Below, one piece after another: positions 19,413-35,879 of a DNA stretch of 64,000 bases. The notes under the pieces were generated by a model, which was not told where the DNA came from, ran no database searches, and saw only the letters and a list, made by a program, of their open reading frames with translations. Position numbers and translations under genes: made by a program. The stretch's first letter is position 1, and every line of letters starts with the position of its first letter. Source of the stretch: a virus; IMG/VR virus record IMGVR_UViG_3300020583_000015, positions 5,668-69,667 of that record; one strand, written 5' to 3'.

Positions 19413-21503
19413 CTACTTTAAGTAAAGCTTTCCGCCCAACACACGCCCCACTAACGGAACGTTTTGAGTGGAGGTGATTGTGTTACCGATTGTTGTGCCT
19501 GCGGTGAAGACCACAGCCCCATCGGTTGTGATGATCTCTAGCCGTCGGCCTTCGTACAGGCCTGTGATTGTTCCGACACCTGTGGTGCCAGTCACCTTGA
19601 AAAGTGTGTAGCCTGGAGTAAGACTGATGCTTGAGGCACTCGCGACAGTCTGCGGCACATTGTCAGCACCGTTGTTGTTTTCAATTACCCCTGATGCTGG
19701 TGTTGCAGTGAAGTGAAACCCAGCAGTCGAATAGTTACCAAAGTTATTGCCAGTCACTGTCAGGTTTGGAATCGCTGCTGTGAATTCTATATCGTATGTT
19801 GGAGTTGCACCAAGACCTACATACCAGTTGTTGTTTGTAAAGGTCATGATGTTTCCAGCAGCGATCGTCATGCTTGCGATGCCGTTGGAGGTGTTAATGA
19901 TGTTGTTGTTGGAGAACACCAGGCTTGTAGCTTGGCCGGTATCCCCAGCTCCGTCAAAAATCTTCGTGCTTCCAAGATTCACAAACCGACTGTTGGAGAT
20001 CTGAAGACCCGCAACAGTCACCAGAAACCTAAACACTGGGTTTGTGTTTGAGCCACTGTTAGAGATGCTGGAAGCGTCTATGTTGATGTTGGTAGGCAGG
20101 AGTGTGCCTCCAAACTTAAAGGCCGGGCCACCCGTCCAAGAATCAATCTGAAGATCCACCCAAGAAGTCAAATCAGAAAGACACCCTGTACAGCTCGGCA
20201 CAGAATAAAGAATCTGGGCGCTAGTGACTGGTCCACCAATCAGCGTCCGGTTGAAGAACGCGCCGTTTGTGAAGCCAAGAAGAATTATTTCTCCGGGGGT
20301 GTAGCTAACAGTGTAGAGGCCTCCGGCTTGGGCGATGATGTAATTAAACAAATCACTTGTGCCTTGGAATCCAATAAGCGCAGCGTTGGCCGCGCCCTCC
20401 ACGGAAATGTTATCCATGTAGATGGTGGAACAATTGCCGAGGGTCGCCCCGTTAATGCAGCCGGTTGTGGCAGAAGTTGTGCCAAGGGTGTTGACTCCAT
20501 TCCAGTTGTGACGAAGCCAGAGGTTTGTAAGATAGACTGCAGACGACCCATACACTCCAATCGTGTCACCATTAGAGGGAAGCGTACTGTAGCCGTTTAC
20601 TCGGTAAACGCCAAAGTCCTTTAGTGTGACGTTGTTTAGGCCGTTGATGGTAATTACATTACCGCTATTGAAGTCAGCCTGAATAAAGCTTACGCCCTCA
20701 CCAAGCCCAAGAAGTGAACTGCTGCTGAATGGGATTGTAAGGTTTGCTTTAGTATGAGTGATGCCTGCTGGCAATACACAAGACCCAAGCGTGCCTCCAG
20801 ACTCAAGGCACTCAAAGATTCCACCTGATCCACTAGTAAGTGTCCAACTTCCACTGTGGCTAAAGGTAGGAGTAAAGATGACTGTGCCAGTTCCGATTGA
20901 AGCACAAGTACCGCCTTGAATCAGCACCGCTTCGGCCGTCCCGACTCCATTCGATACATACAAATAATGCCCAGTATCGCTACCGTTGACGCCTGTTGGA
21001 CAGGGGTTCATTGTGACTGTTGCTCCAACTCCGCCTGTCAGTGTGCCGCCTGGGGTTTGGGCGGGGAAGTTGTAGATCGAGGCTGTGAACGGGCTGGTTG
21101 TGAGGATGTTTGTTTCGATTGCTTTGATTTCAGCAGCAGCTTGATTGTGATAGCCTGCGACAATAAAGAAGTTGACAGCAGTTCCGTTAGAGTGAGAGGC
21201 AGCAGCCGTGCCATCAAAACCCCTTCCGTTAGGACATATCCCAAACGAAGTAGAGGTCTTGGTGCATGCCAAAAGTATCTCACTATCAATACTAAGTGCA
21301 GTAGGAACTAAGATGCCTGCAGTCGTAACGACATTGATTGTTGTGTCGCCGCCTGCTACCGACGCGCTAAGGTTTGTAATGACGTTGTTGGAGGCAACCA
21401 TCAGGTCTGTATCGGTTGCGGCCCGTCCAGGAAACACAGCGGTCTTGGGGTTCTGGGCAAATGCAGCCCCCACCAACATCAGCGCTAATAGTAGTTTTTT
21501 CAT
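19413..21503 (-). CDS. Tailspike-like beta-helix protein with N-terminal signal peptide
   Basis: AAAGGA RBS; MKKLLLALMLVGAAFA|Q; fibre-anchor domain (RGFDGTAAASH..EIKAIE); LPAG..LLGLGEG pectate-lyase-like start and Asn-ladder beta-helix repeats. Confidence 0.75.
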   Translation of the reverse strand: MKKLLLALMLVGAAFAQNPKTAVFPGRAATDTDLMVASNNVITNLSASVAGGDTTINVVTTAGILVPTALSIDSEILLACTKTSTSFGICPNGRGFDGTAAASHSNGTAVNFFIVAGYHNQAAAEIKAIETNILTTSPFTASIYNFPAQTPGGTLTGGVGATVTMNPCPTGVNGSDTGHYLYVSNGVGTAEAVLIQGGTCASIGTGTVIFTPTFSHSGSWTLTSGSGGIFECLESGGTLGSCVLPAGITHTKANLTIPFSSSSLLGLGEGVSFIQADFNSGNVITINGLNNVTLKDFGVYRVNGYSTLPSNGDTIGVYGSSAVYLTNLWLRHNWNGVNTLGTTSATTGCINGATLGNCSTIYMDNISVEGAANAALIGFQGTSDLFNYIIAQAGGLYTVSYTPGEIILLGFTNGAFFNRTLIGGPVTSAQILYSVPSCTGCLSDLTSWVDLQIDSWTGGPAFKFGGTLLPTNINIDASSISNSGSNTNPVFRFLVTVAGLQISNSRFVNLGSTKIFDGAGDTGQATSLVFSNNNIINTSNGIASMTIAAGNIMTFTNNNWYVGLGATPTYDIEFTAAIPNLTVTGNNFGNYSTAGFHFTATPASGVIENNNGADNVPQTVASASSISLTPGYTLFKVTGTTGVGTITGLYEGRRLEIITTDGAVVFTAGTTIGNTITSTQNVPLVGRVLGGKLYLK

Positions 21504-21665
21504 CTTAGTCCTTTGCGAGCAACAGCCCAATCAACGCAATCACCGCTAACACATTATCAGGGGAAGCAAAAAAGTGCGAGGGGTGTGTCGCCAGCAGCGT
21601 CAGCCCTGTGATACCAGCAATCGAAGTGACACGATTCTTAAGGATTCGGTCGAGAATATTTTTGA

Positions 21666-22508
21666 TCATGGGATTAGCGGGGTTTTTGGATTGAGGATGT
21701 TGCCTTCATAGTTGTTGCCGAATCCACCAAGGTTGACTGGCTTCAGATGGGGTGCCCGATCACTAAAGATGTTTGCCTTCAGCGCGTGGTAACGAATACA
21801 CTGCGCAAGGAACTTTTGCTTTCGCTTCATTGCCTTCGCGATATCCTGGTTAGGACCAGCACGAAGATAAGCACGATAAGTGCAGTAGTTATTGACACTG
21901 TATTTTGTCCAGGCAGGCACAGCCATAAGGTCTGTGTCAGCAATCAGGTTTAGGACCTTCGGATATTCAAATACCGCTGTGCCAGTATTGATAGGAGGCG
22001 GATAGAGGCTACATCGGGTTGAATCATCCTGGTAGACAATCCGGGGCTCATACATATCAAAGACGCTACGCCACTGATGACGCAGAATGTCAAGCTCTTC
22101 AATGCTGCGTCCCACAAGCCTCCGACTGTAGGGTTGAGTTGGGCTACTCCAATACACCGCATCCAGCCTCATCATGTTTGGGTCGATTGCAGCTAACGCG
22201 ATAGTTGATGTGCCTGAGCCGAGTGTGACTGTCGCTGTGCCCCACACAAACTCAAACCGCTCTTGAAGTTCATCTTGCCAGTCCTGGATGTAGTTGTTGA
22301 GTTCTGTGTCTGTCCACCAACGTCCGGTTGTGGTAGAGGTGGTGGTGACGTAGATGCCTGTGTCAAGCAACTCCCTCCGCACCATATTCCGAAGCGTCAC
22401 AAGATTAAACGGATAGTTAACTGTTTGACATCCACCAACACCACCGTCATCAAAAAGCGGTGCGTCAAAAACACTAGAATCAAAGATTCCTGTGGGTTGG
22501 GTGGACAT
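21666..22508 (-). CDS. Head-tail adaptor protein (paralog 1)
   Basis: LRNMVRREL..WWTDTELNNYIQD.Q, LYPPP, YCTYRAYL pattern; similar to 18630-19403. Confidence 0.7.
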   Translation of the reverse strand: MSTQPTGIFDSSVFDAPLFDDGGVGGCQTVNYPFNLVTLRNMVRRELLDTGIYVTTTSTTTGRWWTDTELNNYIQDWQDELQERFEFVWGTATVTLGSGTSTIALAAIDPNMMRLDAVYWSSPTQPYSRRLVGRSIEELDILRHQWRSVFDMYEPRIVYQDDSTRCSLYPPPINTGTAVFEYPKVLNLIADTDLMAVPAWTKYSVNNYCTYRAYLRAGPNQDIAKAMKRKQKFLAQCIRYHALKANIFSDRAPHLKPVNLGGFGNNYEGNILNPKTPLIP

Positions 22509-22563
22509 GGCTAGACAAATCCAATTATAACAAACTTGGCTAGCGGGGCGGGCTTAGGACGGC

Positions 22564-24063
22564 TTAGATAAGTTGGGTTGAGAAATGTCGCCCCATGACT
22601 TCTTCAAGTCGGGTGATGAGACGTTCGCCTTGAATTGCACCCATCGCACACCGGGGGCCGCTTGCAACTACAACTCCTTCGGGATTCAGGATCTGTGTAC
22701 AAGGACAACTCTCAGGTGTGTAGTGGAGCTGATGACACGGATAGCATGGCGCAAGCTCCACGTCAGGCGCAAGGCAATAGTCGTTTTTCCAGTTTGCGCA
22801 AAGATTCTGGTGGGTGCTGTGGCTTAGCAGCGGGATCTTTGGCGTGTCAAAACATCCCGCTGCGTTGATCACTACACTCTCCACCCCCACCACACACTGC
22901 ACAAACTTCGTCAGCGCTAGAGTATGTCGTAGCGTTTGGGCCCCCGCCCGGGGAATGAGCTGGGGGTGTTGGAACTCCATGCAATTAGCTCGGGCGTCTC
23001 CGACGGTAATGATTCGGGCTTTGGGGTTTCGGTCAAGGAACTCTGTGACAACTGGTTGGAAGATCCCATAAACTTTATGGTAGCTACTACCATTGAGCGC
23101 CCAGAGGATGTTGTAAGAGCCTCCAAACTGCTTGAGAAAGTCTTTCGCGGCTCGCTCTTCTGCAGGGCTGAAATACAACTCTCCGCGCGATCCAACAACG
23201 TCTGAGTACCCTCCGAGTCGGAGAGTGAAATCATAATAATTGTGGCTTCCGCATTGGGCGCGACGCCACTCGCTTGTGGTGTAGAACTCCCTACGGCCTT
23301 CGACTTTGAGAAGCGAGCCTTCGCAGCTTTCGCTGAGGTTGATGTATTTGTCATAGTGTGGTCTCCAAAAATCCCAGTACTCACTAAGATCGATGTTTGG
23401 GATTGCGTCCTTTTCCTGCAACAGGAGGTTATCTACAAACGGGTTGTACTCCACAACCGGAGCGCTGTAGTTGGTGATGTTGAGGGTGACGTGGTAGCCA
23501 TCCTCGTGAAGCCTTCGAAGGAGTGGTGTGAGGATAATCATATCCCCAAGCGCACCATATCGGCACACGCACGCGCGAGGGCGAACATCAGCTGAAGGTT
23601 TGACTTCTATGCCTTTGGGCCCGTTCTTCTTTTTGTAGACTTGAACAAAATATCCCTCCTCGTGTTCAAGCTCCAACACCTTACGCCAGCTGCCTTTTGT
23701 AGCGATTCGCTCTTGCATGGTGGTGGGTGTTAGGATCGAGTCAGTCTTTTGAAGACTAATCAGATAGCCTCCAACCTTCAGCTTACTGACCGCCTCCGCT
23801 AGGTAGCCTGAGGGGTTGTCCTGCAGAAACAGCCGGTCTCCTACAAACACATAGTCAAAATAATTCTGAGCAAACGCCGCTAGATCCGCTGCGCACACAC
23901 TGATTTTTGGGTGGGGGGTGCTGTCTGCGTAAGCAGCAAACACATTGAGGGCTGTTGCGTTAGTGGGGAAGATCTCCTGGTTAGCGGTCGCTACTAGACC
24001 CTTTCCCCTCAAATAACAAACTGACGCGAAACGTGCCCATTTAGAGACATTTCCGAGCGCCAT
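22564..24063 (-). CDS. GT9 (ADP-heptose heptosyltransferase-like) glycosyltransferase with an N-terminal methyltransferase-like domain
   Basis: RYGALGDMIILTPLLRRL, NPFVD, GSSYHKVY, VVGVES.V.NAA, PCYPC are GT9/RfaF motifs. N-terminal FDYVF..LKVGGYL resembles a class-I SAM-MTase fragment. Confidence 0.85.
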   Translation of the reverse strand: MALGNVSKWARFASVCYLRGKGLVATANQEIFPTNATALNVFAAYADSTPHPKISVCAADLAAFAQNYFDYVFVGDRLFLQDNPSGYLAEAVSKLKVGGYLISLQKTDSILTPTTMQERIATKGSWRKVLELEHEEGYFVQVYKKKNGPKGIEVKPSADVRPRACVCRYGALGDMIILTPLLRRLHEDGYHVTLNITNYSAPVVEYNPFVDNLLLQEKDAIPNIDLSEYWDFWRPHYDKYINLSESCEGSLLKVEGRREFYTTSEWRRAQCGSHNYYDFTLRLGGYSDVVGSRGELYFSPAEERAAKDFLKQFGGSYNILWALNGSSYHKVYGIFQPVVTEFLDRNPKARIITVGDARANCMEFQHPQLIPRAGAQTLRHTLALTKFVQCVVGVESVVINAAGCFDTPKIPLLSHSTHQNLCANWKNDYCLAPDVELAPCYPCHQLHYTPESCPCTQILNPEGVVVASGPRCAMGAIQGERLITRLEEVMGRHFSTQLI

Positions 24064-24069
24064 TGAATG

Positions 24070-24525
24070 TTAACCGTTCTCTTCGAATGCCTCGTCAGCT
24101 GCGGTTTCGTAGTCACGTTTGATGGTGACATTAAAGTGTCCGCCTTCTTTGACACGCCGAGATTTGCCTGCGTGAGGTTTCATACAGGCGTCCAGGTGGT
24201 TTGAGTGGAATGGGAGTTGCTTGTCACAGATCTCACAGCGGAAGTCCACCGCCTCAAGACCCGCCTCTGCGAGCTGATCCCAAAGCTTCACAGGCTTATC
24301 GCTTCGCCGAAGGCTCAGCATAATTCCGCCTCCACAAGCTGCAGCATGTCGCGCGATTGCTTCTGCGCTGAGCGTCAGCCTGGTGTGGCAGGACGGATCT
24401 ACTTTGTGGTAGGGAGGGTAGGCCTGGCAAAGAATCTCAGTCGGATAGAAATTCTTCAGTGCTTCCCATTTTGTTCGGCTCCGCTGGGGAGTCTGAGGTG
24501 TGTTGGTTTGAGTTGGTGCGGGCAT
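24070..24525 (-). CDS. Hypothetical Cys/His-rich (possible Zn-binding) protein
   Basis: C..C and H motifs (FRCEICD, HLDACMKPH). Confidence 0.6.
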   Translation of the reverse strand: MPAPTQTNTPQTPQRSRTKWEALKNFYPTEILCQAYPPYHKVDPSCHTRLTLSAEAIARHAAACGGGIMLSLRRSDKPVKLWDQLAEAGLEAVDFRCEICDKQLPFHSNHLDACMKPHAGKSRRVKEGGHFNVTIKRDYETAADEAFEENG

Positions 24526-24551
24526 AATCGTCTAGAAAGCGTTTGTTACAC

Positions 24552-24599
24552 CACAGGGGGAGCTAGGAGAGGAGGTCAGGTGGGACTAACTCCCCTGTG
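24552..24599 (-). terminator. Stem-loop downstream of the capsid operon (terminator or processing site)
   Basis: CACAGGGG(G)A ... TCCCCTGTG inverted repeat; no strong U tract. Confidence 0.4.
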
Positions 24600-24631
24600 G
24601 CAGATTGGCGCGACCCTAAGGCCGCAAACCT

Positions 24632-24805
24632 TTAACTACGACATCCTGTTGGCCAACAGCTTGGCGGCGCAGGAGGCCTTGGGGCAGGAGGAAGAGGTTG
24701 GGGTTCAGTCCAACATTCCGGAGGACAATACGGATCAGGCGGCCACATTGGACCATCCGCAAAAGCCCCCGCTGCAAGCAGCCCTACCCACAACAACCGA
24801 CGCAT
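24632..24805 (-). CDS. 57-aa secreted Pro/Cys-rich peptide (below the ORF-track cutoff)
   Basis: Hand translation MRRLLWVGLLAAGAFA|DGPMWPPDPYCPPECWTEPQPLPPAPRPPAPPSCWPTGCRS; TAATG coupling to the upstream gene. Confidence 0.7.
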   Translation of the reverse strand: MRRLLWVGLLAAGAFADGPMWPPDPYCPPECWTEPQPLPPAPRPPAPPSCWPTGCRS

Positions 24806-25230: not shown

Positions 25231-25241
25231 ATTTGTTCTCC

Positions 25242-26189
25242 TTAGGCACTCGTCACGTACACGATGTGTTGCTCAGAGTCGACTGTGAAATTCCATACAA
25301 TCTTGAACCCAAGCAACGCATACCATGCAATTCCAAGATCACGACCGTAGTCAAGGGAGACTTTGATTCGGATCTCCTCGGGCACGCTTACTGCCTCGTA
25401 CACATTGTCAGAACCAAAGAACACGCCCTGACCATAGCTGGAGGCATTACCGATGGTGTTGCTGAAGAAACCAGTCTCTTCAACAAACCTCGTGTGGTAG
25501 TAGGTCCCAAGCTCACCGTTGAAGATGTTGGGAGCAAACGTCACAGTGTATTTGCTGACGTCAACCCAACCCCCTGCAGCAGTGTCGCTGAACATTCCGC
25601 TTAAGAAGGTAACACTCCCTATGCAGGCGTAGGTGTTACCGATGCGCGGAACCAGCTTTTTCTTCATGAAGTCCACAATCTGACGGGTGTTGCTACCTGT
25701 CAGGTTGGACGTAGCAACCGCTGTCGCAGTGCCGTTGGTTGTGAAGATTGTGTTGCCAGACGCGCTCAGAACCGCCACAAACTCTGTGGCTGTGAAAGCC
25801 GTGCCAGCCGCTGACTCCAGCACTTTCACCTGGTCATCCTTCAGCTTACGTTCTGTGACAGGTTCAATCTCAAACTGTCCCAACGTCTGAAGTTTCCCAG
25901 TAAAAGGCACGCTGTTACCGTACTCTGTAATGGAGCCAGTCCCTTGGTTCGTTACAAAGTTGGTCTCAGGAATGGTGTTTGTTTCGACGAGGGTTCCACC
26001 CTGAGTCGCAACGTTACCAGCTTTATCAAACAGCCAAGTGTCGCCTCGGCCTTTACCAACAGCTTCTCGCACATCAAGAAACTGCCGGAAACGGAACTCT
26101 GGCTGAGCCACAAACCGGATCTTTTGGGAAAGATACGGCGCGGTCCAGTTTCCGCCCAGAGTACTGATACTATATACTTGTCCAGGCAT
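25242..26189 (-). CDS. Major capsid protein (N4 gp56-like, HK97 fold)
   Basis: F.FRQF, GKG.GDT..F, ITEYGN, IFNGELG.Y...RFVE, FFG...EA, DYGR..GIAWY pattern; follows the scaffold gene. Confidence 0.9.
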   Translation of the reverse strand: MPGQVYSISTLGGNWTAPYLSQKIRFVAQPEFRFRQFLDVREAVGKGRGDTWLFDKAGNVATQGGTLVETNTIPETNFVTNQGTGSITEYGNSVPFTGKLQTLGQFEIEPVTERKLKDDQVKVLESAAGTAFTATEFVAVLSASGNTIFTTNGTATAVATSNLTGSNTRQIVDFMKKKLVPRIGNTYACIGSVTFLSGMFSDTAAGGWVDVSKYTVTFAPNIFNGELGTYYHTRFVEETGFFSNTIGNASSYGQGVFFGSDNVYEAVSVPEEIRIKVSLDYGRDLGIAWYALLGFKIVWNFTVDSEQHIVYVTSA

Positions 26190-27484: not shown

Positions 27485-30400
27485 TTAGTTTGTGTCGGAT
27501 TCAGCTACACTGTTAGCAAGCACATTACCGCTGGAGTCCTTGATGCGGTAGCTCCAGGGGGTGGTGCCGGTTGGGGTGTAGACGGTGATGGGGGCACAAG
27601 CCGGACTACAGGCGCTAGAGGCCATGAAGTTAGTGGCTGAGCCATATCGAAGCTCAAGCGTCGCAGCCGAAGGCGGGGTGTTAGCCCCGTTCCAGCCACT
27701 AATTGTTCGGGTTTTGAAGGTCCCACAGCTATTGGTGAAGGTGATGACATGTGGGTTTGGTTGAAGACCTCCCTCGTGATAGACTGTGTAGACGTTGGCG
27801 CTAGTCTTGATGATCGGTTGATCTGGACACCAAGTGCCAATAAGCCCACTCAGGTCGATTGTGCGGGTGGAGGGGGTCATGCCGCTGATAGTGGCAACGA
27901 TTGTGGAGCTGCTGACTTGAGCCAACTCCCCTGGACCACCACTAAGTTTAAGGCCGTTGAAGGTCTGAGTTGAGCTGTCAAACACATCCAGCACAACCAA
28001 CCCGCCACTTGTGGTGTAGGTGTAGAAGCTGCCGCCTGCCGCAGGCACACACTCAGTTGAGCTAACCGGACTGGTTGTTACGACCTGAACTCCACAAGCT
28101 GGGTTTGTGATGGTTCGGCTCGGAACGGAGCTCTTAAGATACGGCCCAAACACTGTAGTGAAGCTTCCGCTGTCGTTGACCTTCAGGATTGCCACGCGCT
28201 CTCGGAAACAAGGTATCACACTTCCGCTAGTGTAGGAACCGCTGAGTCCGCTAAAGTCTCCGTTGTTAGTTTTGAAAGTCACAACATTCCCGCTGACTGC
28301 GCTGACGCTAGGTCCAACATTCCCAACCCCGTTACAGCTTGCATTGGAGTTGACATTCCCGCTTCCAACAAACCCGCTTGTTGAGGCTTGATCCCCGACA
28401 ACGTAGTTGTGGGAGTTTGCAGCAAAGGTGATTTGGAGGTGGGTTGCGTCAGCAGCCACCGCGTTGGTGATGCCGCCTCCAGACTGGGTAAGGGTCTGCG
28501 CGGCTTTGTATTGGCTATCAGTAATAGAGTCTTCACACATATGACCCCACCCTGCCACCGCATATTGGGCTCCGCTTGTCCCACGAACAATCCAGATGTC
28601 ACTGTTGATGCCGTTACCCGCGAGGTTCGGCATGTTTTGGCCCTTCACGTTGAACGCCTGAATACCGCTTCCAAGACCTGTAGCAGTGCCCGCACTTGGA
28701 AACACGCTAGGAGGAGCTGCTGGACCTTCGCTTACGCACTGGGTTGTGTGGGTTGCGTCAGTCACAGGGGTTACGTTCCCGCTAGGTGTGGTGACGCTTG
28801 TACTGTCATACAGCAGGTTGAATTGGATTGTTTTGCTTGCGCCAGCGTTTGTTCCGGAAGGAAAAGTGTCATACACACCAAACAGCGGGAACGCTGGGTT
28901 TCCGTTTGTTAGGACCACACACCTTTTCCAAACGGTTGTGTCGGAGTTGGTGTAGGTTTGGCAACTGTAGGAGCTGTAAGTGAAGTTCAACACTTCTGTC
29001 TGGGCGGTTGCTCCAACAGCCGCGAAGTTTGTGGAAGAGCTGCCCCCGGCTGTCTGGACTGGGTCGTACATACTGGTTGGGGCTCCGTACCAAGGATACG
29101 AGGCGTTTTGGGTGTTGGAGGTGAATTCACTGCTGTAGATGAGGGCGCTGTGGCAAATCCGTCCTGGGCAATCAGGCTGATAGATATTGCTGCTGAGGTC
29201 CACAACCAGCGGAACATTGTGGAAGTAGCTAACAAACGAACCTCGGTCAGCCTGCGCATGGTCGCTATAGAACTCCCCATTCAAAACCATGTACCAATTC
29301 TCGTGGGTTGAGTTCTGATTAAAGCGTCCTGCTGTATAGTAGCCTGGGGCGTTGTAGGTTGAGAGGGTTGGCATCCCAGGGTTTGTGAGGGTTGTGTCGA
29401 TCGAGATGATTGGTGGCCCAAAGAAAGAATTGAAGTTCAGAAGCGTTGGGGTATTTTGATTGTACCAACTTCCCATGTCAGTATTAGTCCCGTAGAGACT
29501 TGCAAGGAACCCTGGTTGCTGAACAGCGGTGTAGGTGGCTTCGCCAATTGCAGGCAGCTTCCGGACATTCCCCCACCGTGGGTCAGGCGGAGCAATATAG
29601 TTTGAAAGGAAGTTGTAGTATAGCGGTAGCGTTGGGTAGCTACTGGAGTTGAATCCCGCAAGATTCTGATTCAGTGCAAGCAGATTCAGGAATGTTTGGT
29701 CGTTTGTGCCAAGGTAAGAAGCGCTTGAAGCGCCAGTCCCGGACCCGTTGATTGTTGCTTGCACAACCTGTTGGTTGGTAGTGAGGGCATTCGCGGTGTA
29801 TTTACCGATGTAGGGATGGGACGGAAAGAACGTCGCGGCCTTCGAAACCAGACTGTTGTAACCGTTGGTCTGATTAAAGGTTCCGCCTTGATCCCCGCAC
29901 ACACAAACCCCGTTTGGAAACAGCGGTGTGAAGTTCGGATCAACAATCAACGATCCAATCCAGCCCGCGTAGTTTTTGAAGGAGGTCTTTTGGGTACCTG
30001 AAATGAAGGATGTTTGGAGCGCGTAAGCTGCGTTGGCGATGTGTTGACCAGCGAAGTTTAGCAGCTCAGACCCAAAGCAATTCCCGTCGTAGATACCGTC
30101 GTACTCGGCAATTCCAACTCCACAATCCTGGACTTTTGGAATGAGGCTTGACAAAATCGCGTCAAGACATCCAGAAGCTTGACTTACAAAACAAGTCAGG
30201 ATGTTTGCGCTGTAGCTGTCTCCGGTTAGGCTGACTGTGCTGTCTACAATTGTTTTAAAGCCTGCAACATTGTTTTTGTAGTTGTTCGCGATTGTTGCAA
30301 GATGCGCGGTTGGGATATACGGGGACTGGAACCCTCCAGCCGGGTCTGGGAAGTTCAGCAGGTTCCAACTGTATTGTTCTGTAAGGCTAATGCCAGCAGT

Positions 30401-32794
30401 GTGGTTTTGTTCAAGACTCACTGCGTTGGCGGTTTGGGGGTTCGCAACTGTGATACCAGCCTTTGTGCCACTCCAGATCCCAAACTGACGATGGTTGTTT
30501 GGAGCAAAGGTTGGGATGTTCGCGGCACAATTCGCAATCACAGGAGCGGTGTTAGTTTGCTGATAGCATGGCATACTAACAAAATAAATCGCCGCACCCT
30601 GGGCACTTGTTGAAAATAGGTTGTTTGAGGTTTGCCACCCCATAACATCCGCCACGGCATTCAACTGGACTCCAGCTTTACCTGTGTACATTGCAACTGC
30701 TGGTGCCCCACTAGACGCAGATGCATTAAAAAGCTGTTGCCAATTCCCGCCTGTGTTGGAGGAATTCCAAACACTCAGCGGATCGCGGCTTCCGCCTCCG
30801 CACCCAGCGGTAACAATTGTCCCAGTGTAGCTGATGGTTTCTGTGTAGGTTGTAAGGCGACTTTGGTTGTTAGAGGTATTTGGAATTATGTAGCTAGCGC
30901 TGTTGGCGTTGTAAGTGCCGCCTGTGGTGTTGGCGTTCACACTCAGTGTGTTGCTGTCAACCACTGTGTAGGAGAGTCCACTTGCGTTGAGGGCTGTGAT
31001 TGCGCCTGTGCCTGTTGCACCGCTAACTGTGAGGGCTCCTCCAACACCATTCAAGCTGTGGTTTGGAGCTGTCACAAGCGTTGGGTTTCCGACTGTGACG
31101 GCTGTGATTGTTTGGGGTCCCCACACCCCACACCCATTGTTTGGAAGCCCGTCAGTGCGGCGTTGGATGGTGTCAGGCGGCGAAGCTCCCCACGTCCCAT
31201 ACACATCCCACATATGCCCGATGTTCATTCCACCATCATCGATGTCAACCAAAAAACTACTTTGGTTAGCATACATTGTGAAAGTCATGGTGTATTTGGC
31301 GGAAGTGGTGGCGACAGAACCAGCTAGGTTACTAATGCCAGACTTGGTGTATACAGGCCTGTTGAGGGTGTAGGTTGTTTGGATGGTAGTTTTGCCGGGG
31401 CCAAAATCTATATAAAACAACTGATAGTTTGTGGCCATCATCAACTTCACCGGCAGGCTGTTGCTGCCGTTCATGTTATCAAGTGCGCTACCAGAGGTTG
31501 AGCCGGAGGTCTCGCCCTGCCAAAGCCGACCACCTGTCGCAACCCAATTACCGTTTGTAAGACGGAAGCCCTGAAACGCATCGACACTCAAGTCAGCGTT
31601 GATGATGGTGAGATTGGGGTTGTTGGTCGTGTTGTAGGTGTCGTTTGAAAGCCCGCTTTGACCGGTGACTGTGAAGGTGTTGGTTGTGACACTTGCGAGT
31701 GTGAAGACCCCACACGGTCCAAAGTTGCTATTTGCGTAGGAGGTCGCACAGCCACTGATGGAGATTGTATTGCCGCCACTCAGTCCATGCCCCGCAACTG
31801 TACAAACAATTGTTTGGGTTGGGGCACTACCACTAATTACACAAGACGGATTGCCGTTTGAGGCATTGAAGGTTTTGGTGGGGTTGGTTTGTTGAGCAAC
31901 TCGGATTGCCACAAGCCCGTTGTCGCAGGTTATATAAGACGCACTGGTTGTACAAACAATCGGATTGGTGAAGGTTGCAGTTGGGGTTGTGAGACTCTGG
32001 AGCGTGTGCGTCCAATCAAAGATAACTTTGTTGAGGGCGTTGTTGATATTGTCAAGACCAGTAATTGCCGAGCCCCCGACTGTCGCGGATATCTGAAACG
32101 TTCCTGCCCCAACATTCAGGTTTGTGACGTAGTAGTTTGTGTCGGCAGTCAGCTGCGAGGGGATTGTTCCCTCAAACTGAATCGGATCTCGGTTCGCTAG
32201 GTAGGTTGCGACAGTTGGAGCGGTAAAGACATTCGACGCGACTTGGAAGCCTGTGTAGGTGAGGCTTGGTAACGACACCGCACAATTGGTTGTGGTGAGG
32301 GCACTTCCACCGGGAGTCGCGCTAAACGACAGCGAAAGATATGGTGAGCCTCCGCTTGGCACCAGCGTGTAGTTCTTAACAAAGTAATCGTCTGTATCTG
32401 TTAGGCCGCAAGGCGCGCTACTGGATGGCACACTGAGGCGTACAAGTTGGTTGACTGGAAAGCTATATTCGTAGCCTGGCCACTGGATACTTGTTGAGCT
32501 TGGGGTGATTGGAGTGCCAGCAGCCTGATAGGTTGTGTAGACAGTTGAGGCCGGAAGATGACAAGGAAACGCAATATAACCATTTCGAAGGAGCTGAAAG
32601 GGTTCCTGATCAACTCCGTTTGGCGCAAGCAGTGCTGTTGTAGAAAGCGTCAGCTTTGCGCCTGTGTAGGGAACTTCGCACATTTGGTTTGTGTGAAACA
32701 CCCCTACCAACTCCTTCAACTCAAACGTCGCAAGAGTTGATTGGGCAAACGTCAGTGAAGTTAGGCCAAACAACAATCCTAGAAGTTTTTTCAT
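27485..32794 (-). CDS. Very large secreted-type spike/fibre protein with heparinase II/III-like lyase region
   Basis: Likely start MKKLLGLLFGLTSLTFA|Q at 32794. Repeated beta modules (TVAGHGLSGGNTISISG; TAPNHSL; NSHNYVVGDQ). SDHAQADRGSF....VPLVVD and WKRCVVL resemble heparinase II/III C-terminal motifs. Confidence 0.65.
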   Translation of the reverse strand: MKKLLGLLFGLTSLTFAQSTLATFELKELVGVFHTNQMCEVPYTGAKLTLSTTALLAPNGVDQEPFQLLRNGYIAFPCHLPASTVYTTYQAAGTPITPSSTSIQWPGYEYSFPVNQLVRLSVPSSSAPCGLTDTDDYFVKNYTLVPSGGSPYLSLSFSATPGGSALTTTNCAVSLPSLTYTGFQVASNVFTAPTVATYLANRDPIQFEGTIPSQLTADTNYYVTNLNVGAGTFQISATVGGSAITGLDNINNALNKVIFDWTHTLQSLTTPTATFTNPIVCTTSASYITCDNGLVAIRVAQQTNPTKTFNASNGNPSCVISGSAPTQTIVCTVAGHGLSGGNTISISGCATSYANSNFGPCGVFTLASVTTNTFTVTGQSGLSNDTYNTTNNPNLTIINADLSVDAFQGFRLTNGNWVATGGRLWQGETSGSTSGSALDNMNGSNSLPVKLMMATNYQLFYIDFGPGKTTIQTTYTLNRPVYTKSGISNLAGSVATTSAKYTMTFTMYANQSSFLVDIDDGGMNIGHMWDVYGTWGASPPDTIQRRTDGLPNNGCGVWGPQTITAVTVGNPTLVTAPNHSLNGVGGALTVSGATGTGAITALNASGLSYTVVDSNTLSVNANTTGGTYNANSASYIIPNTSNNQSRLTTYTETISYTGTIVTAGCGGGSRDPLSVWNSSNTGGNWQQLFNASASSGAPAVAMYTGKAGVQLNAVADVMGWQTSNNLFSTSAQGAAIYFVSMPCYQQTNTAPVIANCAANIPTFAPNNHRQFGIWSGTKAGITVANPQTANAVSLEQNHTAGISLTEQYSWNLLNFPDPAGGFQSPYIPTAHLATIANNYKNNVAGFKTIVDSTVSLTGDSYSANILTCFVSQASGCLDAILSSLIPKVQDCGVGIAEYDGIYDGNCFGSELLNFAGQHIANAAYALQTSFISGTQKTSFKNYAGWIGSLIVDPNFTPLFPNGVCVCGDQGGTFNQTNGYNSLVSKAATFFPSHPYIGKYTANALTTNQQVVQATINGSGTGASSASYLGTNDQTFLNLLALNQNLAGFNSSSYPTLPLYYNFLSNYIAPPDPRWGNVRKLPAIGEATYTAVQQPGFLASLYGTNTDMGSWYNQNTPTLLNFNSFFGPPIISIDTTLTNPGMPTLSTYNAPGYYTAGRFNQNSTHENWYMVLNGEFYSDHAQADRGSFVSYFHNVPLVVDLSSNIYQPDCPGRICHSALIYSSEFTSNTQNASYPWYGAPTSMYDPVQTAGGSSSTNFAAVGATAQTEVLNFTYSSYSCQTYTNSDTTVWKRCVVLTNGNPAFPLFGVYDTFPSGTNAGASKTIQFNLLYDSTSVTTPSGNVTPVTDATHTTQCVSEGPAAPPSVFPSAGTATGLGSGIQAFNVKGQNMPNLAGNGINSDIWIVRGTSGAQYAVAGWGHMCEDSITDSQYKAAQTLTQSGGGITNAVAADATHLQITFAANSHNYVVGDQASTSGFVGSGNVNSNASCNGVGNVGPSVSAVSGNVVTFKTNNGDFSGLSGSYTSGSVIPCFRERVAILKVNDSGSFTTVFGPYLKSSVPSRTITNPACGVQVVTTSPVSSTECVPAAGGSFYTYTTSGGLVVLDVFDSSTQTFNGLKLSGGPGELAQVSSSTIVATISGMTPSTRTIDLSGLIGTWCPDQPIIKTSANVYTVYHEGGLQPNPHVITFTNSCGTFKTRTISGWNGANTPPSAATLELRYGSATNFMASSACSPACAPITVYTPTGTTPWSYRIKDSSGNVLANSVAESDTN

Positions 32795-32795
32795 C

Positions 32796-35700
32796 TTAGA
32801 GCGCTTCAACCTTGATATGCAACTCATACACCATTGTTGTACCGGTTGAACTGTAGCCAAAGGCGTATGTCACGCCAACCCCAGTCTTAGCATAAATCAC
32901 CGCGCTTCCAGTGAGGGTAGCTTGGGTGGTGTTGGTGGTGTTGCCGGTCCCGACGGATAAGGCTGTTCCGGCTTGGTTGTCTTCAGGGAGCGTGAATGCA
33001 GTTTGAGCAACGCTATCAGTGCCGTCTGTGTAGGCTAGCACGAGGCCTGTTGTGCCCCCAAGAATTGAGCTTGTCCCCGCTGTTGTGACCTTCGCGTAGT
33101 AGCTAACTCGGTAGAGTTGGGTGGCGGCTGGAGTCCAAAGAGCAGTAGCGCTAATTGCTGCTGATTGAGTTGTGAGGTCGATTGAGGCAATCGAGCCAAC
33201 AAGTTTGTTGGTAGTGGATAGAACTGGTGTGTAGCCGATTGTGTTGTTGATGTTGTATTTGATGCAAGCCAGTCCCGGTCCCGCAAGACAAGTCCCAGAG
33301 GTTGTGATGGCAGGGTGTGTGCCAGCAGCTGCATCAAACCATCCAGCCACAGCATCAGTCAGCGCAGCAGGCCCCGCGCCTGTCAGAGACGGATTCCTGA
33401 AACGTATATAATCAAGCCGTGTAACTGTTTGGGCTGTTGCGGCATCCAAATGCGGAATCAAATCAAGCCCGCCAGCCATGCTATCAGCAACAGTCGCGGT
33501 GATAGTTTGTTTTGCCATCAGCGTCAATGCGGCGCTGCTAATAGCTGAAGGATTGTACCCACCTTTACAGTCTGCTCCAATACAAATAGACTGCATGCTG
33601 TTGGAGGTATTAGCTGGGGTTTCGCTAAAGAACTGCAGTCCTGTATTACCGGATGAGTCTTGAATTGAGGTGCGGGCGTTAGAAGGCGTAGCACCTCCAC
33701 TCGCGTCTCCCTGTAAAACTAGGTTTGTGTTGGATTCAAGTCCTGCAAAGTTTGTGTTGTTTGCAGCATTCATAATAAAAACAGTATCACCGGAATTAAC
33801 CCATGTAGCGCGGAAGACCTGATTTCCATTAGGCCCAATGAACTTAAATGGGGTAGCGTTGGAGCCCCACTTTCCGCAAAGCACATCTTGGCTATCGCCG
33901 CCAGTGTAGGAGCTAGTGCCGAAGTTGAACACACAAGAAGTAGAATTAGATGGAGGAGTTGTCGAAAGAGCCAGAAGGCCAGCAGCTGGACTGCTAGAGT
34001 TGGCAAGTGCTTGGAAGGTTGTGCTATTTAGTCGGAGTTGAATTTCAGACCCTGAACCCGCAGGGCTCGCCCCACCCCCAATCGCTGCCCAGGTATTAGT
34101 GGCAGTACAACCTTTAAAGGATGTGCTAGTGGAGTTGAACTCAAACTGCCCGGCTGTACAGGTCCCAGGGTCGCTACTGTGGACTGGGGCAAGAAAATCT
34201 GCTGCGCTGAAGCTTTGGAGGCCGGTTGTCCAGGTGTTGGCGGCGTTTGTACAAACCCCATTCACAACATCAGTACACTGGATGTTGCCAAAGGCCGCAG
34301 CCCCACTCACCCACGCAAGGTACTGGCCGTTAGTGTGGGTGCTTATTGAGGAGGTCGCAAAGTTACTACCCGCCAACAGTATATCCCCTGAGGTTGCAGC
34401 ACTACCGCTAATCCCATAGTAGGGCTTTATCCACTGGCTACTGTTGTTGCGCATTGCGATTGTGTAGTCAGATTGATCGCACGCAAGATCCCCAACACCA
34501 AGGTTCACAGTGAAGAGTGTTGAGCACACAAGCCGAAGTCCGGCCTGACCTGTGACCGCCCCACCCGCCACAGACCACTTCCCAAGGATTGTTTGGTTCC
34601 CGCTCAGGACTGCTGTGTAGGTTGAGTCAACTGTAAAGTTAGTGCCGCTGAGGGTGATGCCGTTTGAGGCGGTGTAGGAGGTTGCGTTTGAGGCAAGACT
34701 CAGGCCATTTGAGGCTGGGGTGATTGTAATACCGCTGCCCGCCACCAATGGCGCTGTCGCAAGATAGTTTGTGCCGTCACTCCACACCTGCGCCCATTGG
34801 TATTGCTGGAGGGTGATGTTGGAGGTGCCACCGTTGATGGTTAGGGTGTTGCGCGCAATCGTCAGCGCGGAAGCATTGAGGTTGAGGATTGTTGCGCACC
34901 AAGGAGCTGCAGGCGCAGGCGCTGGGAGCGTGGCAGTTAGGCTTGCACCATTCTCAGTAACAAGCTTGTTGTTGTCTCCACTCACAAGCGGATAGCTACT
35001 GGTTTGGGCATTCACGCCACCTCCCGCACATCCAATTGACCCGGTACTACCAAGATTCACAGTCACGCCATTGTAGGTGAGGCTTGGGTTGGCGAGGTTT
35101 GCGTTTGGAATGCCAGTCGGCAGATCCCCAGGCTGAATCGCATCATACCCAGGGGCAGCGGTTGAGCCGCTGTTGTTACCCCAATACTTGTGGGCTCCTA
35201 CTGTCGCAAGACTTATTGTGACTGTGCCACTGCTATTGATGTTGTTGATGAGGGTTCCATCACCACTGAAGGTTGTGACGCCAGACCCGCTACCTGACGG
35301 AACTGCCCACGCGCCATCAGCCCTCAGAAAGTTCGCTGTACCGCCACCAGAGCCAGGAACCGTGCCTTGGAGGGTGTTTGTAAAGAGGCTAACTTTTGTG
35401 CCAGCTAACGATGTGATCCAGGTCGGGTTTGCATAGGAGCCAGTTGGTAAAATGATGTTTGCGCCATTCACACCAAGGAACTGCTCAATCGCCTCAATCT
35501 CTAGCGATCTGGTGTTTACATACCAAGCGATGATGTTGGATCGCACGCTAGCGCCGTTGTTGTGGTTGGAGGCGGAGGTGCCCCCAAACCCACGTCCAGA
35601 CGCACAAACCACAAACTGTGTGCCACTTGCGTTACTACAAAGCTGCACATGCTCATTGTCAATTGTAACGACTGTTGGGAACGCAACAAAACTTGAAGTC

Positions 35701-35879
35701 GAAGCAACATTCACAACCAGGTCACTGATGCCCATGTTGCTAGTCAGGGTTGTTGCGGCTTGGTCAGACGCCTTTAGCAGCTGGCTGTCTGTAACAATCG
35801 CGCTTGGGAATTGCGCGGTTTGAGCCAGTAGCGCGGATGTTGCTACCGCAAAAACAAAAAGCTTTCTTATAAGGTTCAT
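32796..35879 (-). CDS. Tail fibre-like protein with N-terminal signal peptide
   Basis: MNLIRKLFVFAVATSALLA|Q; anchor domain paralogous to 19413-21503; fibre motifs GSYANPTWITSLA, FLRADGAWAVP, YTASNGITLSGTNF, GSGSEIQ. Confidence 0.8.
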   Translation of the reverse strand: MNLIRKLFVFAVATSALLAQTAQFPSAIVTDSQLLKASDQAATTLTSNMGISDLVVNVASTSSFVAFPTVVTIDNEHVQLCSNASGTQFVVCASGRGFGGTSASNHNNGASVRSNIIAWYVNTRSLEIEAIEQFLGVNGANIILPTGSYANPTWITSLAGTKVSLFTNTLQGTVPGSGGGTANFLRADGAWAVPSGSGSGVTTFSGDGTLINNINSSGTVTISLATVGAHKYWGNNSGSTAAPGYDAIQPGDLPTGIPNANLANPSLTYNGVTVNLGSTGSIGCAGGGVNAQTSSYPLVSGDNNKLVTENGASLTATLPAPAPAAPWCATILNLNASALTIARNTLTINGGTSNITLQQYQWAQVWSDGTNYLATAPLVAGSGITITPASNGLSLASNATSYTASNGITLSGTNFTVDSTYTAVLSGNQTILGKWSVAGGAVTGQAGLRLVCSTLFTVNLGVGDLACDQSDYTIAMRNNSSQWIKPYYGISGSAATSGDILLAGSNFATSSISTHTNGQYLAWVSGAAAFGNIQCTDVVNGVCTNAANTWTTGLQSFSAADFLAPVHSSDPGTCTAGQFEFNSTSTSFKGCTATNTWAAIGGGASPAGSGSEIQLRLNSTTFQALANSSSPAAGLLALSTTPPSNSTSCVFNFGTSSYTGGDSQDVLCGKWGSNATPFKFIGPNGNQVFRATWVNSGDTVFIMNAANNTNFAGLESNTNLVLQGDASGGATPSNARTSIQDSSGNTGLQFFSETPANTSNSMQSICIGADCKGGYNPSAISSAALTLMAKQTITATVADSMAGGLDLIPHLDAATAQTVTRLDYIRFRNPSLTGAGPAALTDAVAGWFDAAAGTHPAITTSGTCLAGPGLACIKYNINNTIGYTPVLSTTNKLVGSIASIDLTTQSAAISATALWTPAATQLYRVSYYAKVTTAGTSSILGGTTGLVLAYTDGTDSVAQTAFTLPEDNQAGTALSVGTGNTTNTTQATLTGSAVIYAKTGVGVTYAFGYSSTGTTMVYELHIKVEAL

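What the first reader, a model, noticed from the sequence alone, without database searches (positions are those of the whole stretch)
19413..35879. Tail fibres/spikes carrying Sec signal peptides: possible periplasmic maturation of virion appendages
Seen in the sequence: the three fibre/spike-like proteins in the morphogenesis operon (starts 21503, 32794, 35879) all begin with a Lys-containing hydrophobic leader ending A|Q (MKKLLLALMLVGAAFA|Q, MKKLLGLLFGLTSLTFA|Q, MNLIRKLFVFAVATSALLA|Q). Two of them continue into the same ~120-aa phage fibre-anchor-like domain, and all contain many closely spaced Cys pairs. Capsid, portal, adaptors and nozzle have no such leader. Established knowledge: tailed-phage virions normally assemble in the cytoplasm, so exported fibres are unexpected. 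Inference: these appendages are exported, disulfide-bonded and possibly Gln-cyclised or glycosylated in the periplasm, then dock onto particles at lysis. Alternatively they remodel or mask the host surface for superinfection exclusion.
Basis: partly seen in the sequence, partly recalled or inferred. Interest (0 to 1): 0.85.

Follow-up and report, generated by a model that had tools for sequence, protein, structure and literature searches.

The report
Phage tail fibres carrying export signals
An uncultured 70-kb short-tailed soil phage puts ordinary bacterial secretion signals and paired cysteines on its only tailspike- and fibre-like proteins, so its host-recognition parts probably fold in the periplasm, apart from the rest of the particle.

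Summary
Three minus-strand genes (19413-21503, 27485-32794, 32796-35879) of a 69,667-bp phage genome begin with Sec/signal-peptidase-I-type leaders ending A|Q. Their start codons are well supported.

None of 16 other proteins of the structural block has such a leader; a 57-aa peptide does.

- The 696-aa protein is a beta-helix tailspike. It lies between two SU10-type adaptor genes, just before the nozzle-like gene.
- The 1027-aa fibre shares its roughly 120-aa N-domain.

This N-domain lies beside adaptor genes in 79 of 83 related loci. It occurs both leaderless and leader-bearing, and the predicted cut falls where leaderless proteins begin.

A cysteine pair inside the domain occurs in 15 of 21 leader-flagged variants and 0 of 70 leaderless variants.

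The +1 Gln matches secreted proteins of an Acidobacteriota genome that holds a related fibre.

Export is well supported by sequence. Late docking onto particles is inference. Glycosylation sequons are not enriched.

I found no paper describing this for tailed phages. This scan has noted the same on many other phages.

SignalP could not be run, and nothing was tested experimentally.

The parts
35876..38242 (-). Portal gene. It has no leader, and its stop overlaps the start of the leader-bearing fibre (ATGA).
   Evidence: phrog_332 5.9e-24 and phrog_1216 1.1e-16; sequence; N-terminus
32796..35879 (-). P0003, a 1027-aa fibre with 16 Cys: leader, shared N-domain, long body and exchangeable C-terminal tip.
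35823..35879 (-). Leader of P0003 (19 aa, cut predicted LLA|Q)
35460..35822 (-). Shared fibre N-domain of P0003 (residues 20-140), with Cys81/Cys92
32799..33194 (-). C-terminal tip of P0003 (residues 896-1027). It is 54-76% identical to the tips of four other proteins, all of which bear a leader.
27485..32794 (-). P0002, a 1769-aa leader-bearing protein with 34 Cys and no shared N-domain. It is possibly a heparinase II/III-like lyase (a lead only).
32744..32794 (-). Leader of P0002 (17 aa, cut predicted TFA|Q)
25242..26189 (-). Major capsid protein, no leader, 1 Cys
   Evidence: phrog_1357 2.3e-19
21666..22508 (-). Adaptor paralogue A (280 aa), no leader
   Evidence: Pfam PF24175 SU10_adaptor, 54.0 bits against a cut-off of 27
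21505..21669 (-). 54-aa ORF with two hydrophobic stretches. Its start overlaps the adaptor A stop (ATGA) and it ends 1 nt before the tailspike ATG.
   Evidence: sequence read; not analysed further
19413..21503 (-). P0001, a 696-aa tailspike with 10 Cys: leader, shared N-domain, neck helix and right-handed beta-helix.
21456..21503 (-). Leader of P0001 (16 aa, cut predicted AFA|Q)
21090..21455 (-). Shared fibre N-domain of P0001 (residues 17-138), with Cys80/Cys90
19584..21086 (-). Beta-helix (depolymerase-like) body of P0001, about residues 140-640
   Evidence: AF2 model; Foldseek matches to phage depolymerases and tailspikes; profile hit to 7chu pectin lyase, 2e-6
18630..19403 (-). Adaptor paralogue B (257 aa), no leader
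   Evidence: Pfam PF24175 SU10_adaptor, 35.6 bits against a cut-off of 27
14335..18630 (-). 1431-aa nozzle-like protein, no leader. It is called a nozzle by position only.
   Evidence: no Pfam or PHROG hit; same position as the 1414-aa ORF in L065

Best explanation
The three proteins are the phage's receptor-binding gear: a beta-helix tailspike, a long fibre, and a large partner that is probably sugar-cutting.

Inferred pathway, step by step:
1. Each protein is made with a genuine Sec signal peptide.
2. It is threaded unfolded across the inner membrane.
3. Host signal peptidase I cuts it at A|Q. This exposes a Gln that the host may cyclise. It also creates the same short N-terminal docking peptide that leaderless relatives have from their start codon.
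4. The protein folds and trimerises in the oxidising periplasm, where its sequential cysteine pairs become disulfides.

Heads, portal, adaptors and nozzle are built in the cytoplasm. The spikes would join the adaptor/nozzle only once holin lesions or lysis merge the two compartments. This is the same last-step, in-vitro-capable addition known for P22 tailspikes and T4 fibres (recalled).

Shown here: the leaders, their modularity, the cysteine pattern, the tailspike fold and the synteny.
Inferred: export, cleavage, disulfides, pyroglutamate and late docking.
For: 1. Signal features. Each leader has an n-region with K/R, an uncharged h-region of 13-14 residues (too short for a membrane anchor) and small residues at -3/-1. 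None has a lipobox Cys or a twin-Arg.

2. The leader is a separable module.
- In 80 viral loci with the N-domain, 11 have such a leader ending [AG]|Q, 0-6 residues before the conserved [FY]P. The rest lack one, and 10 of those have an in-frame stop within 3 codons upstream of their Met.
- Both homologues of P0002 have a leader.
- All four proteins that share P0003's tip have a leader.
- Among the 150 best of 11,963 profile hits, 103 are N-terminal copies, and 45 of those were flagged as leader-bearing.

3. The mature end matches the leaderless start. P0001 would begin 7 residues before FP, as M-A-T-P-T-P-V-FP does. P0003 would begin 4 residues before FP, as other leaderless forms do.

4. Cysteines.
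- A pair inside the N-domain occurs in 15 of 21 leader-flagged sequences and 0 of 70 leaderless sequences.
- At least two Cys lie in that segment in 31 of 45 leader-flagged versus 2 of 58 leaderless proteins. Both exceptions look like truncated leaders.
- Extra Cys-flanked loop insertions occur only in leader-bearing rows.
- Sequential close pairs occur in all three window proteins.
- The core virion proteins are Cys-poor: portal 2, capsid protein 1, scaffold 0.

5. Virion role.
- P0001 has the tailspike fold.
- Its gene lies between two SU10-type adaptor genes and ahead of the nozzle-like gene.
- An adaptor-like ORF lies beside the fibre in 79 of 83 loci: 69 of 69 leaderless and 10 of 14 leader-bearing (Pfam confirms 4 of 10 tested).
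- Residues are invariant across both classes.
- No other clear fibre gene exists in the window.
- In SU10, the fibres dock by their extreme N-termini (PMC9509320, passages).

6. Host match.
- Related fibres lie in Acidobacteriota bins.
- In the Solibacteraceae bin G001, 15 of 15 CarboxypepD_reg proteins examined have [AGS]|Q.
- In G001, 15 of 45 unselected leader-like ORFs have +1 Gln, the commonest residue.
- G001 encodes a Glu_cyclase_2 protein, 2e-92.
Against: - No trained predictor and no experiment were available. Export, cleavage and disulfides are all inferred.
- The leader/cysteine link is phylogenetically clustered. The leader label needs 6 changes on the N-domain tree, but only 2 are forced by supported branches. 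Independent contrasts gave only 2 usable pairs, which is not significant.
- Leaderless relatives of the same N-domain family also have many Cys overall (for example 15, 13 and 10).
- Even Cys counts occur in only 12 of 22 leader-flagged homologues versus 16 of 27 others. The even counts in the window may therefore be chance.
- Four to five leader-bearing N-domains lack the Cys pair.
- The N-domain core is also a common repeat in giant proteins, so it is not by itself proof of a docking function.
- The nozzle call rests on position only.
- Host assignment rests on metagenome bins. Only 7 of 301 Acidobacteriota genomes had any match, and most of those were partial.
- Joining exported fibres to cytoplasmic particles has no published precedent that I found.
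Confidence: 0.5

Rival explanations
1. The proteins are exported but are not, or not mainly, virion parts. They would act as free or envelope-bound enzymes and adhesins in the infected cell. Possible jobs are cutting exopolysaccharide or O-antigen from within to free progeny, destroying receptors, or blocking superinfection.
For: The same leader evidence applies. P0001 has a depolymerase-type beta-helix. P0002 has no fibre N-domain and gives a weak lead to heparinase II/III-like lyases. The phage encodes further small exported proteins. A paper on Porphyromonas phages reads its Q-rule signal-peptide proteins as host-surface modifiers (PMC10367356, passages).
Against: The conserved docking-type N-domain and neck are kept in leader-bearing lineages, with the same invariant residues as in leaderless fibres. 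The gene keeps the adaptor-fibre-adaptor position. Without these three proteins, the window holds no clear receptor-binding protein.
Confidence: 0.25
2. The hydrophobic N-terminus is not used for translocation, or is not cleaved. It would be a structural or tethering helix, for example one buried in the adaptor or holding fibres at the inner face of the membrane, and the fibres would assemble in the cytoplasm as usual.
For: Tailed-phage assembly is cytoplasmic in every studied case (recalled). AF2 draws residues 2-14 as a helix. Signal-like N-termini on phage capsid proteins have been read as protease-removed segments (PMC10367356, passages).
Against: The h-regions are only 13-14 residues long. 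All 20 leader-bearing N-domain sequences have [AGS]|Q just before the domain, which mirrors the host-lineage secreted proteins. Leader sequence is not conserved while its hydrophobic profile is. The Cys pairs and Cys-flanked loops go with the leader. Leaderless homologues do without any such helix.
Confidence: 0.15
3. It is an artefact: wrong start codons, or a chance run of hydrophobic residues.
For: My leader scan is permissive and flags many spurious ORFs.
Against: The ribosome-binding sites and ATGA/TAAgATG coupling fit these starts. No alternative start lies before the conserved domain. Leaders recur in homologues from unrelated contigs.
Confidence: 0.02

Closest known systems
Tail of Escherichia phage SU10 (Kuravirus): adaptor gp11, long fibre gp12/gp13, short fibre gp16, nozzle gp17 (PMC9509320; abstract and passages read)
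   Same: Two genes of the window pass Pfam's SU10_adaptor cut-off. A fibre/spike gene sits beside the adaptor and just before a very large nozzle-position gene. Both are short-tailed phages, and phiEco32-type ligase genes are also present.
   Different: The SU10 fibres were modelled from residues 1-90 and 3-6, so they keep their N-termini and dock with them. Here the fibres carry a cleavable-looking secretion leader. There are two adaptor paralogues. The nozzle-like protein has no family hit. The portal is only about 22% identical to that of any catalogued phage.
Podovirus tailspikes and depolymerases (HK620 and P22-type tailspikes, Klebsiella phage depolymerases 7vul and 7w1c, phi29 gp12)
   Same: The fold is a right-handed beta-helix body behind a small N-terminal domain and neck (Foldseek E 2.5e-6 to 1e-3).
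   Different: No sequence similarity was detected. TM-scores are low (0.19-0.32). Those proteins are made and assembled in the cytoplasm without leaders (recalled, not tested here).
Q-rule signal-peptide proteins of Porphyromonas gingivalis phages (PMC10367356, passages) and the Bacteroidetes Q-rule (PMC5837995, abstract)
   Same: These are phage-encoded proteins whose predicted signal peptidase I cut exposes an N-terminal Gln, matching the host's own secreted proteins.
   Different: Those are five proteins of unknown function, read as host-surface modifiers, and tail parts are not mentioned. The Q-rule is described as specific to Bacteroidetes, whereas here the best host lead is Acidobacteriota.
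Leader-bearing 'structural protein' gp082 of cultured Cellulophaga phage phi46:3 (KC821622, Pachyviridae)
   Same: The record annotates gp082 as a structural protein, and its N-terminus is a leader ending LNA|Q. The neighbouring gp083 also has a leader.
   Different: It is unrelated in sequence. The annotation is by similarity to a phi18:3 protein. The proteomics paper behind it was not held, so virion presence is not verified here.
Filamentous phage coat proteins (pIII, pVIII); also SAR endolysins and spanins
   Same: They are phage proteins that use the host Sec pathway. In filamentous phages these are virion proteins (recalled).
   Different: Filamentous virions assemble at the membrane by extrusion. 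Endolysins and spanins are not virion parts. Here a tailed, portal-bearing capsid is involved.

Membership tests
Sec/signal peptidase I signal peptide | Positively charged n-region | tested here: met
   MKK-, MKK- and MNLIRK-
Sec/signal peptidase I signal peptide | Uncharged hydrophobic h-region of about 7-15 residues, shorter than a membrane span | tested here: met
   13-14 residues; maximum 10-residue hydropathy 2.83, 1.95 and 2.27, against 1.4 or less for 15 of the 17 other genes of the block
Sec/signal peptidase I signal peptide | Small residues at -3 and -1; no lipobox Cys at +1; no twin-arginine | tested here: met
   A-F-A|Q, T-F-A|Q and L-L-A|Q
Sec/signal peptidase I signal peptide | Positive call by a trained predictor (SignalP or DeepSig) | not testable with these tools
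   No such tool was available; only my own heuristic was used
Sec/signal peptidase I signal peptide | Demonstrated export and cleavage | not testable with these tools
   Needs experiment
Podovirus tailspike (beta-helix depolymerase) | Right-handed parallel beta-helix body | tested here: met
   AF2 model with pLDDT 70; Foldseek matches to phage depolymerases and tailspikes; profile hit to 7chu, 2e-6
Podovirus tailspike (beta-helix depolymerase) | N-terminal particle-binding domain that docks on the tail | tested here: inconclusive
   The conserved N-domain lies next to adaptor genes in 79 of 83 loci, but binding itself is not shown
Podovirus tailspike (beta-helix depolymerase) | Glycan-cleaving activity; trimer | not tested
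   No catalytic residues were identified
SU10/Kuravirus-type tail module | Adaptor protein of family PF24175 | tested here: met
   54.0 and 35.6 bits against a cut-off of 27
SU10/Kuravirus-type tail module | Homologous nozzle protein | tested here: inconclusive
   The 1431-aa ORF has no Pfam or PHROG hit; the call rests on position only
Q-rule substrates (N-terminal Gln after the cut, cyclised by the host) | +1 Gln on the phage proteins and on host secreted proteins | tested here: met
   3 of 3 in the window; 20 of 20 leader-bearing N-domains; 15 of 15 and 15 of 45 in bin G001. 10 of 15 in G002, which is unpublished.
Q-rule substrates (N-terminal Gln after the cut, cyclised by the host) | Host glutaminyl cyclase; pyroglutamate on the mature protein | tested here: inconclusive
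   Glu_cyclase_2 at 2e-92 in G001, none found in G002. Pyroglutamate cannot be tested, and the host identity is not certain.
Heparinase II/III-like polysaccharide lyase (for P0002) | Match to Hepar_II_III families or fold | tested here: inconclusive
   Language-model neighbours score 0.90-0.91. There is no Pfam hit even at E 5. The AF2 model has pLDDT 28.6 and is unusable.

The most novel reading that the evidence does not exclude
A large group of soil short-tailed phages builds its virions in two compartments. Heads, portal, adaptors and nozzle are made in the cytoplasm. The whole receptor-binding apparatus is exported by Sec, trimmed to an N-terminal (pyro)Gln and disulfide-stapled in the periplasm. 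It is clipped onto the particles only when holin lesions or lysis merge the compartments. The same phages would then reveal a Q-rule outside Bacteroidota, in Acidobacteriota.
Probability: 0.4. Interest if true: 0.85.

Novelty: new variant of a known kind. Interest (0 to 1): 0.7.

Why it matters
Textbook tailed-phage assembly takes place entirely in the cytoplasm.

If receptor-binding proteins are routed through the periplasm, several things follow:
- They can use disulfides and N-terminal capping for stability in soil.
- Their production depends on the host's Sec, signal peptidase and Dsb machinery. These become new host factors and new points of resistance.
- Particles must acquire their fibres late.
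- Signal peptides would stop being a reason to exclude a protein from virion annotation.
- Recombinant depolymerases from such phages would need periplasmic or oxidising expression.

The leader's +1 Gln also offers a host-prediction clue for uncultured phages.

Tried and rejected
Searches for relatives
I therefore could not see the 380-kb contig that holds the P0002 homologue P0055.
- The portal-based scan of viral contigs found no relative.
- The window DNA has no match in catalogued phages. The portal's only hit is 22% identity to Mastigocladus phage CHP58.
- P0002 relatives were not found in metagenome contigs or viral contigs.
- Sequence searches of solved structures with P0002 and P0003 gave nothing.

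P0002 function
- Pfam gave nothing for the P0002 centre or its homologues at E 5.
- The AF2 model of P0002 residues 650-1350 failed (pLDDT 28.6). The lyase idea stays a lead.

Docking
- Complex prediction with two adaptors plus three copies of the P0001 N-domain gave no verdict (score 0.02 against a mark of 0.32). This counts neither for nor against docking.

Other ideas tested
- Glycosylation sequons are not enriched.
- Phylogenetically independent contrasts of leader against Cys-richness were underpowered (2 pairs).
- Cys-count parity across homologues shows no difference.
- Dual starts, which could make both a cytoplasmic and an exported form, were considered. An internal Met or TTG exists in P0001 and P0002 but not in P0003 or in homologues, so I rejected the idea.
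- Host test in 301 Acidobacteriota genomes: only 7 had a match, and apart from G001 these were partial. This is uninformative.

Literature
- Four searches for exported tail fibres or tailspikes (listings read) found no description. I also read passages of PMC3556154 and PMC5723332, with the same result.
- The Cellulophaga proteomics paper was not held.


Full report
WHAT THE WINDOW IS

The window is bases 5668-69667 of a single 69,667-bp virus contig. It carries these genes:
- a family A DNA polymerase fused to a uracil-DNA glycosylase domain, a DUF3987 helicase-like gene, and phiEco32-type ligase and amidoligase genes;
- a long minus-strand morphogenesis block with the portal (35876-38242; phrog_332, 5.9e-24) and the major capsid protein (25242-26189; phrog_1357, 2.3e-19).

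It has no DNA match among catalogued phages. Its portal finds only one distant hit. It is therefore an uncultured, deeply divergent short-tailed phage.

THE OBSERVATION

The start codons are sound:
- The P0003 ATG overlaps the portal stop (ATGA) behind an AAGGA.
- The P0002 ATG follows the P0003 stop by one base.
- The P0001 ATG has AAGGA five bases upstream and follows a small coupled ORF by one base.
- No other in-frame start lies between the leader and the conserved mature sequence.

Each leader has K/R near the start, 13-14 uncharged hydrophobic residues, and A at -1 with A, T or L at -3. None has Cys at +1 or a twin-arginine.

In my own crude scan of all ORFs of the genome, the three scored highest among ORFs of 200 aa or more (34.7, 31.1 and 27.2; the next best was 19.6).

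I checked the N-termini of 20 genes of the structural block. Apart from these three, only a 57-aa peptide (24632-24805) is leader-like. A 210-aa ORF is also flagged, but its start is doubtful. The portal, scaffold-like protein, capsid protein, both adaptors, the nozzle-like protein and the large proteins downstream are not leader-like.

P0001 and P0003 share a domain of about 120 aa directly after the leader, at 37% identity. Both hit phrog_7578.

The three proteins have 10, 34 and 16 Cys. The portal, capsid protein and scaffold-like protein have 2, 1 and 0. The cysteines lie in sequential close pairs more often than random placement gives. SignalP could not be run.

WHAT THE PROTEINS ARE

P0001:
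- An AF2 model (21-row alignment, mean pLDDT 70) shows four parts: a leader helix, a small beta-rich N-domain (pLDDT about 90), a neck helix (residues 116-136) and a long beta-helix.
- Foldseek matches Klebsiella phage depolymerases, the HK620 tailspike, phi29 gp12 and many viral 'pectate lyase superfamily' tailspikes. TM-scores are low.
- The family profile hits a pectin lyase structure at 2e-6.

The two genes flanking P0001 (21666-22508 and 18630-19403) both pass Pfam's cut-off for the SU10 adaptor family. The 1431-aa gene that follows sits where SU10 has its nozzle, but it has no family hit.

In SU10, both fibre types dock on the adaptor and nozzle through their extreme N-termini (PMC9509320, passages).

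P0003 is a 1027-aa fibre. Its last 130 residues are 54-76% identical to the tips of four other proteins.

P0002 (1769 aa) lacks the N-domain. It has only two homologues. Language-model neighbours point to heparinase II/III-like lyases. Pfam and an AF2 model gave nothing usable.

By analogy with SU10's proximal and distal long-fibre genes, P0002 may ride on P0003. This is inference only.

THE LEADER IS A MODULE, AND THE FIBRE IS THE SAME VIRION PART WITH OR WITHOUT IT

A scan of viral contigs with an N-domain alignment gave 80 loci. Reading upstream of the domain in each locus gave three classes:
- 11 loci have a hydrophobic leader ending [AG]|Q, 0-6 residues before the conserved [FY]P.
- Many begin M-(A/S)-T-P-T-P-V-F-P. 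Ten of these have an in-frame stop within three codons upstream of the Met, so they cannot have a leader.
- The rest have a 20-30-residue extension that is not hydrophobic.

The predicted mature end of P0001 (Q-N-P-K-T-A-V-FP) is as long as the leaderless start. The mature end of P0003 (Q-T-A-Q-FP) matches other leaderless starts.

Both homologues of P0002 and all four proteins sharing P0003's tip also carry leaders. The leader sequences differ but their hydrophobic profiles are alike.

A profile search of 1.84 billion representatives found 11,963 proteins at E of 0.001 or better. I examined the best 150:
- 103 have the domain at the N-terminus.
- 45 of those were flagged as leader-bearing, and 43 of the 45 have [AGS]Q at the end of the leader.
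- 58 have no leader.

With an HMM of six adaptor sequences, an adaptor-like ORF lies next to the fibre gene in 79 of 83 loci. That is all 69 leaderless loci and 10 of 14 leader-bearing loci. Three source loci and their duplicates match by construction.

Pfam confirmed SU10_adaptor above its cut-off for 4 of 10 flanking proteins tested. Two of these flank the leader-bearing fibre of L065, which is followed by a 1414-aa ORF.

So the leader-bearing genes occupy the position of ordinary virion fibres. They also keep the residues that are invariant in both classes.

CYSTEINES GO WITH THE LEADER

I compared 91 distinct N-domains:
- The Cys pair of P0001 and P0003 is present in 15 of 21 leader-flagged rows.
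- One of those flags is a false positive, and one further row has the pair but was misaligned.
- The pair is present in 0 of 70 leaderless rows.

In the representative set, the segment holds at least two Cys in 31 of 45 leader-flagged proteins and 2 of 58 leaderless proteins. Both exceptions look like leaders cut short by the gene call.

Some leader-bearing rows carry extra loop insertions flanked by a second Cys pair.

In a second N-domain family attached to the same beta-helix, leaderless members have 0-2 Cys. Leader-bearing members have 8-25 Cys and gain two conserved Cys in the domain.

Against this:
- The trait is clustered on the tree. It needs six changes, but only two are forced by supported branches.
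- Independent contrasts gave two usable pairs.
- Leaderless members of the first family can also be Cys-rich.
- Even Cys counts are no commoner in leader-bearing homologues (12 of 22 versus 16 of 27).

HOST MATCH

Close N-domain relatives occur in a Solibacteraceae bin, in another Acidobacteriota bin, and on one 10-kb contig binned as Mycobacterium.

In the Solibacteraceae bin (G001):
- All 15 examined CarboxypepD_reg-type proteins have a leader ending [AGS]|Q.
- In nine other contigs, 15 of 45 leader-like ORFs have Gln at +1 by the script's own cut. Gln is the commonest residue there, with Ala next at 10.
- The bin encodes a Glu_cyclase_2 protein (2e-92).

In the second bin (G002, unpublished), 10 of 15 have +1 Gln and no cyclase was found.

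The Q-rule paper calls the rule specific to Bacteroidetes. Its main text does not mention Acidobacteria.

The host remains uncertain. The evidence is by binning, and only 7 of 301 Acidobacteriota genomes had any match. A Bacteroidota host is not excluded.

MECHANISM AND RIVALS

The best reading is that these are the phage's receptor-binding proteins. They would be exported by Sec, cut at A|Q, oxidised and trimerised in the periplasm, and added to cytoplasm-built particles when holin lesions or lysis merge the compartments.

Late addition of spikes and fibres is classical for P22 and T4 (recalled). What would be new is the separate compartment.

The main rival keeps export but denies the virion role, making them free depolymerases or surface modifiers. 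The retained docking-type domain, the conserved synteny and the lack of any other fibre gene argue against it.

A second rival is an uncleaved structural helix. It fits poorly with the short h-region, the host-like cut site and the leaderless homologues.

COMPARISON WITH PRINT AND WITH THIS SCAN

Four literature searches found no description of Sec leaders on fibres or tailspikes of tailed phages.

The nearest paper reports Q-rule signal peptides on unknown proteins of Porphyromonas phages.

This scan has noted the same pattern on many other phages. A word search returned 396 notes in at least 358 genomes, among them a soil Acidobacteria podophage. A later check of one such report kept the observation but gave the bold reading about 10 in 100.

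I followed up one lead from those notes. The record of cultured Cellulophaga phage phi46:3 annotates gp082 as a structural protein, and its N-terminus is a leader ending LNA|Q. I could not read the underlying proteomics.

VERDICT

Export is well supported by sequence. Two-compartment assembly is plausible but unproven. It is a new variant of a known kind (tailspikes and fibres). It would be of high interest if confirmed, and it is easy to test at the bench.

Noticed in passing
L084-L112 and L118-L126 (bin G001); L116: Secreted proteins of a Solibacteraceae metagenome bin follow a +1 Gln rule: 15 of 15 CarboxypepD_reg proteins, and 15 of 45 unselected leader-like ORFs. The bin also encodes a Glu_cyclase_2 enzyme. 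The published Q-rule is described as specific to Bacteroidetes.
   Followed up: partly
window 21505-21669 (-): A 54-aa ORF with two hydrophobic stretches. Its start overlaps the stop of adaptor A (ATGA), and it ends one base before the exported tailspike's ATG. It may be a small membrane protein coupled to the spike.
   Followed up: no
window 7-333 (+), 5742-6032 (+), 24632-24805 (-); genome 3850-4185 (+): Further small leader-bearing proteins. One ends SLWG|Q. One is a 57-aa Pro/Cys-rich peptide inside the capsid operon. One, just outside the window, looks like a lipoprotein (LALGC).
   Followed up: partly
proteins P0068-P0102 and others: The core of the fibre N-domain (profile positions about 20-95) also occurs as up to 30 tandem copies in giant proteins of up to 7,980 aa.
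   Followed up: no
L023, L039; protein P0190: Upstream of the N-domain, the open frame reads like a twin-arginine leader (TRR-x-ILF plus a hydrophobic run). A downstream Met could be the true start instead.
   Followed up: no
proteins P0025-P0048: A second N-terminal domain family (KLQGW...) sits on the same beta-helix. Leaderless members have 0-2 Cys. Leader-bearing members have 8-25 Cys, and their +1 residue is mostly Arg, not Gln.
   Followed up: partly
window 39113-39658, 41819-42334, 43751-44578 (-): A TylF-type methyltransferase, a cytidylyltransferase-like gene and a PfkB-type sugar kinase lie among the late genes, between the two terminase-like pieces.
   Followed up: no
window 38259-39134 (-): A 291-aa ORF gives only weak hits to the C-terminal part of large terminases (phrog_5653, 8e-6).
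   Followed up: no
window 330-3026 (+): A family A DNA polymerase is fused to an N-terminal uracil-DNA glycosylase superfamily domain.
   Followed up: no
L065 2143-4447; L076 801-6210; L078 3516-4268; L028 5274-8084: Other phages with leader-bearing fibres carry further leader-bearing proteins (231 to 1296 aa) between the capsid and tail genes.
   Followed up: no
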